DNA of 64,000 nucleotides from the NCBI RefSeq assembly GCF_000026545.1, contig NC_011601.1. One strand, 5' to 3'. This document shows, one piece after another, positions 54,101 through 57,100 of this stretch. The DNA comes from Escherichia coli O127:H6 str. E2348/69 (GTDB lineage: Bacteria > Pseudomonadota > Gammaproteobacteria > Enterobacterales > Enterobacteriaceae). Made by a program: the position numbers. Position 1 is the stretch's first letter. The number at the start of each line of letters is the position of its first letter.

Positions 54101-57100
54101 GGGCATGAGGATCACCACATTTTTACAACAGTGTTTCATTTTTACCATGTGCTGACGTGAAAATCAGCAGTAAGAATCAGAATATTGCTGGCGTGACTCC
54201 CGCTACACTTAATACAAAAAGTCACAAGGAAGCCCCAATGGAAACCCCTCAACCCGATAAAACGGGCATGCACATTCTGCTCAAGTTGGCCTCGCTGGTA
54301 GTGATCCTCGCGGGCATTCACGCAGCGGCAGATATCATTGTGCAGCTATTACTGGCGCTGTTTTTTGCCATCGTTCTCAACCCGCTCGTCACCTGGTTTA
54401 TTCGTCGGGGAGTACAACGCCCCGTTGCCATTACGATTGTGGTTGTGGTGATGCTGATCGCACTCACCGCGCTGGTCGGCGTACTGGCGGCATCGTTTAA
54501 CGAATTTATCTCTATGCTGCCGAAGTTTAATAAGGAGCTGACGCGCAAACTTTTTAAATTGCAGGAGATGTTGCCTTTTCTTAATTTGCATATGTCGCCG
54601 GAGCGAATACTACAGCGGATGGACTCGGAAAAAGTGGTTACCTTCACCACGGCGCTAATGACCGGGCTTTCCGGGGCAATGGCGAGCGTGCTTTTGCTGG
54701 TGATGACCGTAGTTTTTATGCTGTTTGAAGTGCGCCACGTCCCTTACAAAATGCGTTTCGCGTTGAATAATCCACAGATTCACATCGCCGGACTACACCG
54801 CGCACTTAAAGGCGTTTCGCATTATCTGGCGTTAAAGACGCTACTCAGTTTATGGACAGGCGTAATCGTCTGGCTGGGGCTGGAGCTGATGGGGGTGCAG
54901 TTTGCGCTGATGTGGGCAGTACTGGCGTTTTTGCTCAACTACGTGCCCAACATCGGTGCGGTAATTTCCGCCGTACCGCCAATGATTCAGGTGCTGCTGT
55001 TTAATGGTATTTACGAATGTATTCTGGTCGGCGCATTGTTTTTAGTGGTCCATATGGTCATCGGCAATATTTTAGAACCACGGATGATGGGCCATCGCCT
55101 GGGGATGTCCACCATGGTGGTATTTCTTTCATTGTTAATTTGGGGATGGCTGCTCGGCCCGGTAGGGATGCTACTTTCGGTGCCATTAACCAGCGTGTGT
55201 AAAATCTGGATGGAAACCACCAAAGGCGGCAGCAAACTGGCGATTCTACTGGGGCCAGGCAGACCGAAAAGTCGGTTACCGGGATGAGGCGACAAGTGTT
55301 ACGATACGCACTTTCATTTTCCATTAAACGTTGGCCCTGATATGTATCGGATAGTTCTGGGGAAAGTTTCGACCTTAAGCGCAGCTCCTCTGCCACCGGG
55401 TTTACGCGAGCAAGCACCGCAAGGTCCACGACGCGAACGCTGGCTGGCGGGGCGTGCATTGCTTTCGCACACGCTTTCCCCGCTACCGGAGATCATCTAT
55501 GGCGAACAAGGCAAACCTGCATTCGCGCCGGAAACGCCGCTATGGTTCAACTTAAGCCATAGCGGTGACGATATCGCCCTGCTGTTGAGCGATGAAGGCG
55601 AAGTCGGCTGCGATATCGAAGTGATTCGCCCGCGCGCCAACTGGCGCTGGCTGGCGAACGCCGTATTCAGCCTCGGGGAACATGCCGAGATGGACGCCGT
55701 GCATCCTGATCAGCAACTGGAAATGTTCTGGCGCATCTGGACGCGCAAAGAAGCCATCGTTAAACAGCGTGGCGGCAGCGCCTGGCAAATCGTCAGCGTA
55801 GACAGCACCTATAACTCCTCGCTGTCAGTCAGCCATTGTCAGCTAGAAAATTTAAGCCTGGCGATCTGCACCCCTACCCCCTTTACGCTCACCGCCGACA
55901 GTGTGCAATGGATCGATTCAGTTAACTGATCCGCCCACCCGACTGCCCATCTATTGATCCAGAACAGGTAATCAGTATGACGAATACTTAAAATCGTCAT
56001 ACTTATTTCCGCCATCTATTTTAATCCATTGGGGTTACCATGTTCTCTACACTCCGCCGCACTCTATTTGCGCTGCTGGCTTGTGCGTCTTTTATCGTCC
56101 ATGCCGCTGCACCAGATGAAATCACCACCGCCTGGCCGGTGAATGTCGGGCCACTAAACCCGCACCTTTACACGCCTAACCAAATGTTCGCCCAGAGCAT
56201 GGTTTATGAACCGCTGGTGAAATATCAGGCAGACGGTTCGGTGATCCCGTGGCTGGCAAAAAGCTGGACTCATTCAGAAGATGGTAAAACCTGGACCTTC
56301 ACCCTGCGTGATGACGTGAAATTCTCCAACGGCGAACCGTTTGATGCAGAGGCGGCGGCAGAAAACTTCCGTGCAGTGCTCGATAACCGTCAACGTCACG
56401 CCTGGCTGGAGCTGGCAAACCAGATTGTTGATGTCAAAGCACTCAGTAAAAACGAGCTGCAAATCACCCTGAAAAGCGCCTACTATCCTTTCCTGCAAGA
56501 ACTGGCCCTGCCCCGTCCTTTCCGTTTTATCGCACCCTCGCAGTTTAAAAACCACGAAACCATGAACGGAATTAAAGCGCCGATTGGCACCGGGCCGTGG
56601 GTTTTACAGGAATCGAAACTGAATCAGTACGATGTCTTCGTCCGTAACGAAAACTACTGGGGCGAAAAGCCGGCGATTAAAAAGATCACCTTTAACGTGA
56701 TCCCGGACCCGACTACCCGCGCGGTGGCGTTTGAAACTGGCGATATCGACCTGCTGTACGGAAACGAAGGGTTATTACCGCTTGATACCTTCGCCCGCTT
56801 TAGCCAGAACCCGGCTTACCACACTCAACTGTCACAGCCGATCGAAACCGTGATGCTGGCGCTCAATACCGCCAAAGCCCCCACCAACGAGCTGGCAGTC
56901 CGTGAAGCTCTTAATTACGCGGTGAACAAAAAATCGCTGATTGATAACGCGTTGTATGGTACCCAGCAGGTTGCCGACACCCTGTTTGCCCCTTCTGTGC
57001 CCTACGCCAACCTCGGCCTGAAACCGCGCCAGTACGATCCGCAGAAAGCGAAAGCGTTGCTGGAAAAAGCCGGTTGGACGCTGCCTGCTGGCAAAGACAT

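What the first reader, a model, noticed from the sequence alone, without database searches (positions are those of the whole stretch)
55930..56039. nik control region: NikR operator present; FNR site only partly recognisable
The GTATGA-N16-TCATAC dyad is intact. Upstream, TTGATCCAGAACAG contains a TTGAT half-site that could belong to the FNR site expected for anaerobic nik induction, but I could not see a convincing full TTGAT-N4-ATCAA dyad by eye.
Basis: partly seen in the sequence, partly recalled or inferred. Interest (0 to 1): 0.2.

Follow-up and report, generated by a model that had tools for sequence, protein, structure and literature searches.

The report
E. coli nickel-uptake (nik) promoter region
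This is the well-known control region of the E. coli nickel-uptake operon, in which the nickel repressor's binding site is a perfect palindrome while the oxygen sensor FNR's site is real but naturally imperfect, so the finding is correct and ordinary.

Summary
The finding's coordinates are exactly the 110-bp acpT–nikA intergenic region of E. coli, and it is identical to K-12 MG1655. The NikR operator GTATGA-N16-TCATAC lies at 55975-56002 and is unique in the window. TTGATCCAGAACAG (55954-55967) matches the FNR consensus at 8 of 10 positions, with a perfect left half and only C and A kept in the right half.

A PWM built from 63 ChIP-bound FNR sites finds no canonical site. This 14-mer is the only candidate within about 400 bp (8.9 bits, ln p -9.1; next best 1.0 bit). 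Its published score, ln p -9.55, is below the genome-wide prediction threshold of -10.75.

It is nevertheless the functional site:
- The published FNR ChIP-seq summit maps to window 55955, with one motif at -40.5 from the start site.
- ChIP-exo regions cover it.
- Sigma-70 occupancy rises about 28-fold without oxygen.

In 68 Enterobacterales nikA loci the same block sits at an invariant 28-bp centre-to-centre distance from the operator. TTGAT and the C and A of the right half are conserved; the flanks are not. A conserved TAnAAT -10 element lies inside the operator.

This is a class II FNR-activated promoter that Ni-NikR occludes. It is already known.

The parts
55954..55967 (+). FNR binding site TTGATCCAGAACAG. 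It matches TTGAT-N4-ATCAA at 8/10, with a perfect left half and a right half AACAG that keeps only C12 and A13. Its centre is 55960.5, about -40.5 from the inferred start site.
   Evidence: PWM 8.9 bits, ln p -9.14, and the only candidate in 55700-56100. ChIP-seq summit at window 55955, one motif at -40.5, PatSer ln p -9.55. ChIP-exo regions cover it; conserved at fixed spacing in 68 loci.
55975..56002 (+). NikR operator GTATGA-N16-TCATAC, a perfect dyad. The imperfect palindrome extends to 55967-56010. The operator spans about -26 to +2 of the promoter.
   Evidence: unique in the window, 0.01 expected; extended inverted repeat; literature for this operator sequence; conserved in nearly all nikA loci, including non-enterobacterial ones.
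55989..55994 (+). Inferred -10 hexamer TAAAAT (5/6 to TATAAT) inside the spacer of the NikR operator. No recognisable -35 hexamer is present.
   Evidence: TAnAAT columns carry 2.0, 2.0, 0.8, 2.0, 2.0 and 2.0 bits across 67 distinct sequences; no full sigma-70 consensus, as expected for an activator-dependent promoter. The position fits the FNR site at -40.5.
56001..56001 (+). Inferred transcription start (A), 39 nt upstream of the nikA ATG.
   Evidence: Inferred, not measured here. It follows from the FNR motif at -40.5 from the start site in Myers 2013 Table 1, from the position 7 nt after the -10 hexamer, and from the anaerobic sigma-70 ChIP-seq peak at 3,611,651, which maps to window 56001.
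56031..56034 (+). Shine-Dalgarno-like GGGG, 5 nt before the nikA ATG.
   Evidence: Read directly from the sequence.
56040..60955 (+). nikABCDE, the regulated nickel ABC importer genes. nikA is 56040-57614.
60961..61362 (+). nikR, the 133-aa nickel-responsive repressor that binds the operator.
   Evidence: One search gives the ORF and its translation. One search gives the annotation in the Nissle 1917 genome, which matches the window at 100% over 55700-56300.

Best explanation
This is the promoter of the E. coli nikABCDE(R) nickel-uptake operon. It is a class II FNR-dependent sigma-70 promoter with a NikR operator laid over its core.

Under anaerobiosis, a dimer of [4Fe-4S]-FNR binds the asymmetric site TTGATCCAGAACAG, centred about 40.5 bp upstream of the start site. 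It recruits RNA polymerase to a promoter that has a good -10 (TAAAAT) but no -35.

When nickel is sufficient, Ni-NikR binds GTATGA-N16-TCATAC. That operator spans roughly -26 to +2 and contains the -10 hexamer and the start site, so NikR excludes polymerase whether or not FNR is bound.

The FNR site is inherently sub-consensus. Only the promoter-distal half-site is canonical. The promoter-proximal half keeps just the C and A that mirror the critical T and G of TTGAT.

Shown here: the sequence anatomy, the PWM ranking, the identity to K-12 and the phylogenetic footprint. Taken from literature on the identical K-12 sequence: FNR occupancy, FNR- and anaerobiosis-dependent expression, and NikR binding. 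Inferred: the exact start site and the occlusion mechanism.
For: Identity
- The window matches E. coli acpT-nikA at 100%.
- The intergenic region is identical to MG1655.
- nikBCDE and nikR lie downstream.

NikR operator
- It is perfect and unique in the window.
- It is the published operator, bound by Ni-NikR with nanomolar affinity (PMC7055735).

FNR site
- It is the only PWM candidate in 55700-56100: 8.9 bits against 1.0 for the next best.
- Coordinate conversion was checked with the gadE sites (offset 1,977). It puts the summit at window 55955, inside the site.
- An independent ChIP-exo data set covers it and labels it as activation.

Expression
- Sigma-70 signal is 68.7 aerobic against 1896.9 anaerobic, at the position that maps to window 56001.
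- nikA shows a 0.030 aerobic/anaerobic ratio (Table S12). I read the direction of that ratio from control genes in the same table.
- The operon is differentially expressed in the fnr mutant in all three data sets (Table S8).

Conservation
- In 68 Enterobacterales loci the best PWM hit in the scanned interval (150 bp upstream of the operator start to 30 bp past it) is always exactly 28.0 bp, centre to centre, from the operator.
- Column information is 1.9-2.0 bits for TTGAT and 1.2 and 2.0 bits for C12 and A13. The upstream flank (55915-55953) is at or below 0.6 bits, and the 7-bp gap to the operator (55967-55974) is 0.1-0.9 bits.
- The TAnAAT -10 is conserved.
- The 57-bp core is at least 99% identical in 5156 of 5313 matching E. 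coli genomes.
Against: - By sequence alone the FNR site is weak. It ranks 13th in the 64-kb window, sits below the published prediction threshold, and matches of 8/10 or better occur about once per 2 kb by chance.
- The transcription start site was not seen in any data I could open, and the original promoter papers were not available. The -40.5 position therefore rests on Myers' table plus the conserved -10.
- The orthologous loci share ancestry, so the fixed spacing is conservation, not 68 independent events.
- Conservation of the CC at site positions 6-7 is not explained by FNR preferences. C at position 7 scores -0.88 bits in the PWM.
Confidence: 0.93

Rival explanations
1. The TTGAT-containing 14-mer is a chance match. 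On this view FNR controls nik indirectly or through a different, unrecognised site.
For: - The match is only 8/10, and such matches are common: 40 in the window against 28 expected.
- Its PWM score is below the published threshold.
- Myers 2013 reports poor correlation between PWM score and ChIP signal.
Against: - No other candidate scores above 1 bit within 55700-56100.
- The ChIP-seq summit maps inside the 14-mer.
- The block is conserved at an invariant distance from the operator while the upstream flank is randomised.
- In some genera the same position holds 9/10 sites such as TTGATCCAGCTCAA.
Confidence: 0.03
2. The conserved block TTGATCC(AG) serves a second purpose besides FNR binding. 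Candidates are another protein that reads the spacer, or Dam methylation of the embedded GATC. Either could explain why the spacer is conserved and the proximal half-site is kept weak.
For: - Site positions 6-7 (CC) carry 1.7 and 1.4 bits, and positions 8-9 about 0.9 bits. The FNR PWM is nearly indifferent there, or disfavours those bases.
- GATC is present in 29 of 32 distinct orthologous 14-mers.
- None of the 32 variants is a perfect dyad.
Against: - No evidence for any such factor was found.
- TTGATC is common among ordinary FNR sites in the training set.
- Partial conservation may simply reflect DNA-shape preferences of FNR or shared ancestry.
Confidence: 0.1
3. Nitrate repression by NarL acts directly here through the heptamer TACTTAT (56000-56006), which overlaps the start site and the right arm of the NikR operator.
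For: - TACTTAT is an exact match to TACYYMT, a consensus I cite from memory. A 6/7 copy, TACTTAA, lies at 55986-55992.
- NarL-dependent regulation of nikA is reported, but no site had been assigned (PMC2718512).
Against: - A 7-mer with degenerate positions is expected by chance.
- The M position (A or C) of the heptamer is T in most orthologues, and columns 56005-56008 carry only 0.6-0.7 bits.
- The conserved TAC belongs to the NikR half-site.
Confidence: 0.15

Closest known systems
E. coli K-12 nikABCDE promoter (nikAp), with its NikR operator and FNR site
   Same: The sequence is identical across the whole intergenic region. The flanking genes acpT and nikABCDER are the same. All published K-12 data therefore apply directly.
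   Different: Nothing differs in the control region. The first differences from K-12 are synonymous-type changes inside nikA.
Class II FNR-activated promoters at -40.5/-41.5, such as pykA, ynfE, focA, yfiD, narG and dmsA in Myers 2013 Table 1
   Same: It has a single FNR site overlapping the -35 region, no -35 hexamer, and anaerobic gain of sigma-70 occupancy.
   Different: The site is weaker than most: ln p -9.55 against the -10.75 threshold, and against -13 to -16.6 for narG, nirB and yfiD. It also carries a metal-repressor operator over the core promoter.
NikR operators of other proteobacteria, as found here in Rhizobiales and Halomonas nikA loci
   Same: They share the GTATGA-N16-TCATAC dyad upstream of nikA (L068-L071, L074, L076).
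   Different: Those loci have no FNR-like site at the enterobacterial spacing. Scores at the homologous offset are -10 to -31 bits. The FNR input is therefore an Enterobacterales addition.

Membership tests
Enterobacterial NikR operator | Inverted repeat GTATGA-N16-TCATAC | tested here: met
   exact match at 55975-56002, unique in the window, 0.01 expected.
Enterobacterial NikR operator | Lies in the promoter of a nickel-uptake operon, with nikR encoded in the genome | tested here: met
   It starts 65 bp upstream of the nikA ATG. nikR is at 60961-61362.
Enterobacterial NikR operator | Ni-dependent binding by NikR | not testable with these tools
   Reported for this exact sequence in K-12 (PMC7055735). 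Sequence identity to K-12 is shown.
Class II FNR-dependent promoter | Match to the FNR dyad TTGAT-N4-ATCAA | tested here: inconclusive
   The match is 8/10. The PWM gives 8.9 bits and ln p -9.14, below every one of the 63 training sites (minimum 12.0 bits) and below the published threshold. Sequence alone is suggestive, not sufficient.
Class II FNR-dependent promoter | Site centred near -41.5 (within 4 nt) from the transcription start | tested here: met
   The centre, 55960.5, is 28.5 bp before the first base of the conserved -10 hexamer TAAAAT. Myers 2013 lists -40.5. The start site itself was not independently verified.
Class II FNR-dependent promoter | FNR occupancy in vivo and FNR-dependent anaerobic expression | not testable with these tools
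   From the literature: ChIP-seq and ChIP-chip, ChIP-exo, and expression in Tables S8 and S12. The coordinates were mapped to the window here.
Class II FNR-dependent promoter | Site conserved in orthologous promoters | tested here: met
   All 68 Enterobacterales loci that have the operator carry the block at identical spacing. TTGAT carries 1.9-2.0 bits and the upstream flank at most 0.6 bits.
NarL-repressed promoter | NarL heptamer TACYYMT, preferably conserved or paired | tested here: inconclusive
   There is one exact heptamer at 56000-56006 and one 6/7 copy at 55986-55992. They are poorly conserved outside the part shared with the NikR arm.

The most novel reading that the evidence does not exclude
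The weakness of the nik FNR site may be selected rather than tolerated. Across Enterobacterales, the promoter-distal TTGAT plus an unusually conserved spacer (TTGATCCAG, with an embedded Dam GATC) is kept, while the promoter-proximal half is held at only xxCAx. No lineage sampled has a perfect dyad. This could tune nik to respond only at high active-FNR levels, or it could reflect a second, unidentified reader of the spacer.
Probability: 0.12. Interest if true: 0.3.

Novelty: already known. Interest (0 to 1): 0.08.

Why it matters
It matters little for discovery. This is a textbook, experimentally characterised promoter that couples nickel import to anaerobic hydrogenase synthesis, with FNR switching it on and Ni-NikR switching it off.

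There are two small points of value:
- It is a concrete case of a functional, ChIP-verified FNR site that a consensus or PWM scan would reject. Cross-species footprinting recovers it cleanly.
- The one-sided shape of the site (perfect distal half, minimal proximal half) is conserved over 68 Enterobacterales loci. That could be cited when modelling weak class II activator sites.

Tried and rejected
- Sigma-70 and terminator consensus scan of 55700-56200. It found nothing. This is expected for an activator-dependent promoter without a -35 hexamer, so it does not argue against a promoter.
- Rfam scan of 55300-56600 at E-value up to 1. No RNA family matched, so there is no riboswitch or sRNA alternative.
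- Search for a second or better FNR site. None scores above 1 bit in 55700-56100.
- Experimental start-site tables. Kim 2012 and Cappable-seq had no nikA entry in the held files.
- Original nik promoter papers. Rowe 2005, De Pina 1999 and Chivers & Sauer 2000 are not held. Their statements are therefore not cited, except through reviews and reference lists.
- CRP-type reading of the site. I rejected it by inspection, because there is no TGTGA/TCACA core.

Full report
**What the region is**

The finding's interval, 55930-56039, is exactly the non-coding gap between a 195-aa ORF ending at 55929 and a 524-aa ORF starting at 56040. A 601-bp query spanning it is 100% identical to several E. coli chromosomes (Nissle 1917, ATCC 11775) and is present in 5425 of 5426 complete E. 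coli genomes. There the two genes are annotated acpT and nikA. Downstream lie nikB, C, D, E and nikR. The nikR ORF is at window 60961-61362. The intergenic region is base-for-base identical to K-12 MG1655, so published K-12 experiments apply directly.

**Checking the observation**

GTATGA-N16-TCATAC occurs once in the 64-kb window, at 55975-56002, against 0.01 expected. The palindrome extends imperfectly to 17-nt arms at 55967-55983 and 55994-56010. This is the published NikR operator, bound by Ni(II)-NikR with nanomolar affinity (PMC7055735).

TTGATCCAGAACAG is at 55954-55967 and differs from TTGATNNNNATCAA at two positions. Matches of that quality are common: 40 in the window against 28 expected, or about 0.05 per 110 bp.

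I built a symmetric PWM from the 63 FNR sites that Myers et al. 2013 list as lying under ChIP-seq peaks (Table S6) and scanned the window.
- The nik 14-mer scores 8.9 bits (ln p -9.14, p = 1.1e-4 per position). That is rank 13 in the window and below every training site (minimum 12.0 bits).
- It is by far the best candidate in 55700-56100. The next best scores 1.0 bit.
- The published PatSer score for the nikA peak is ln p -9.55, below the authors' precision-recall threshold of -10.75. A genome-wide PWM prediction would have missed this site.

**Experimental evidence from the literature, mapped to the window**

Myers et al. [quoted passage not shown] They report a ChIP-seq summit at 3,611,605, one motif, and a motif position of -40.5 from the start site. 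The peak was called by all three ChIP-seq algorithms and in ChIP-chip.

I checked the coordinate conversion empirically. Two gadE sites from Table S6 lie 1,977 bp higher in NC_000913.3, and a feoA site lies 1,978 bp higher. The nik 14-mer is at 3,613,581-3,613,594 in version 3, which is 3,611,604-3,611,617 in the paper's coordinates. The summit therefore falls on the second base of the site, at window 55955.

Other published data agree:
- An independent ChIP-exo study (PMC3974632) reports FNR-bound regions 3,611,421-3,611,733 and 3,611,367-3,611,767 upstream of nikABCDER, labelled as activation. These map to window 55771-56083 and 55717-56117.
- Sigma-70 ChIP-seq signal at 3,611,651 (window 56001) rises from 68.7 aerobically to 1896.9 anaerobically.
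- nikA mRNA shows a ratio of 0.030 in the aerobic/anaerobic comparison. I read the direction from control genes in the same table, such as acnB at 6.6 and nirB at 0.03.
- The operon is differentially expressed in the fnr mutant in all three data sets (Table S8).

**Phylogenetic footprint (new analysis here)**

A scan of one genome per species with NikA returned 80 loci. I located the best NikR dyad in each and then took the best FNR-PWM hit between 150 bp upstream of the operator start and 30 bp past it.
- All 68 Enterobacterales loci that have the operator (and the window itself) place that hit at exactly 28.0 bp centre to centre, starting 21 bp before the operator.
- Anchored on the operator, 67 distinct sequences give the following column information: 2.0, 2.0, 1.9, 1.9, 1.9 bits for TTGAT; 1.7 and 1.4 for the next CC; 0.5-0.9 for the following four positions; 1.2 and 2.0 for C12 and A13; and 0.2 for position 14.
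- The 39 columns upstream carry at most 0.6 bits, and the 7 columns between site and operator carry 0.1-0.9 bits.
- Among 32 distinct 14-mers none is a perfect dyad. Scores are 7/10 (13 variants), 8/10 (13) and 9/10 (6).
- The left half is 5/5 in 30 of the 32, while the right half is 2-4 of 5 in all but one. The E. coli 'defect' is thus the family norm: a canonical promoter-distal half-site and a minimal xxCAx proximal half.
- NikA loci from Rhizobiales and Halomonas keep the NikR dyad but have nothing FNR-like at that offset.
- Within E. coli, the 57-bp core 55950-56006 is at least 99% identical in 5156 of 5313 matching genomes.

**Promoter anatomy and mechanism**

Inside the operator spacer, TAAAAT (55989-55994) matches TATAAT at 5 of 6 positions. 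It is conserved as TAnAAT at 2.0, 2.0, 0.8, 2.0, 2.0 and 2.0 bits. Seven bases downstream is A56001. This coincides with the start implied by 'FNR at -40.5' (55960.5 + 40.5) and with the sigma-70 peak. No -35 hexamer is recognisable, and the consensus promoter scan finds nothing, as expected for a class II activator-dependent promoter.

The NikR operator then spans about -26 to +2. The best-supported mechanism has two parts:
- FNR bound at -40.5 recruits RNA polymerase under anaerobiosis.
- Ni-NikR bound over the -10 and the start site excludes polymerase when nickel is replete.

The anatomy, ranking and conservation are shown here. Binding and regulation come from the cited literature. The exact start site and steric occlusion are inferences. 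I could not open a primary start-site measurement.

**Rival explanations**
- Chance match with FNR acting elsewhere. This is contradicted by the ChIP summit, the absence of any other candidate and the footprint. Confidence about 0.03.
- A second function for the conserved spacer, or Dam methylation of the embedded GATC. This remains possible because FNR's preferences do not explain the CC conservation. Confidence about 0.1.
- A direct NarL site at TACTTAT (56000-56006). This is an exact heptamer match, and NarL regulation without an assigned site is noted in PMC2718512. However, it is short, poorly conserved and confounded with the NikR arm. Confidence about 0.15.

**Verdict**

The object is the already known nikABCDE control region. 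Interest is low. The only modest addition is the demonstration that the one-sided, sub-threshold FNR site is conserved in position and shape across Enterobacterales.

Noticed in passing
L004:2250-2520 (Escherichia sp. E1V33): In this Escherichia lineage the FNR site and the left half of the NikR operator are missing. They are replaced by repeat-rich sequence (two copies of a GCTATTGCAGTTACAGC...AAAGTGCAC...CCCCTCGCCCCTCTGGG motif). Only CGTCGCCATACTTATTT and the 5' UTR remain. The nik promoter may be rewired or inactivated there.
   Followed up: partly
L006:2350-2470 (Escherichia sp. MOD1-EC7003): An insertion of about 112 bp sits in the nikA 5' UTR, between the intact FNR/NikR region and the Shine-Dalgarno sequence. 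From memory its sequence (…AATCCCCAGG.GCTTAC.AAAGTAAGTGACTG.GGTG…) resembles an ERIC/IRU element. I did not test this.
   Followed up: partly
window 56000-56006 and 55986-55992: TACTTAT is an exact match to the NarL heptamer TACYYMT and overlaps the start site and the right NikR arm. TACTTAA (6/7) lies in the operator spacer. NarL regulation of nikA with no assigned site is mentioned in PMC2718512. The heptamer is poorly conserved.
   Followed up: partly
window 55959-55962: The spacer of the FNR site (CCAG) is more conserved across genera (1.7, 1.4, 0.9 and 0.9 bits) than FNR's own preferences predict. TTGATC also creates a Dam GATC site in 29 of 32 distinct orthologous 14-mers. This is unexplained.
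   Followed up: partly
L052:2423-2436 (Enterobacter sp. ENT03): This is the only orthologue with the opposite asymmetry: TTGCGCCACATCAA, with the left half at 3/5 and the right half at 5/5, at the same spacing from the operator.
   Followed up: no
L068-L071, L074, L076 (Rhizobiales, Halomonas): The NikR dyad GTATGA-N16-TCATAC (0-1 mismatch) is kept upstream of nikA far outside Enterobacterales. There is no FNR-like site at the enterobacterial offset.
   Followed up: no
window 37275-37574 and 39373-39672: This is a direct repeat of 300 nt at 74% identity, 2.1 kb apart. It probably reflects two paralogous genes. From memory of the K-12 map, livK and livJ lie in this neighbourhood. I did not check this.
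   Followed up: no
window 221-234 and 44984-44997: Identical 14-mers TTAATTCACATCAC appear at two distant places. Both are among the top FNR-PWM scores in the window at 11.4 bits. I did not examine whether they lie in a longer repeat or in promoters.
   Followed up: no
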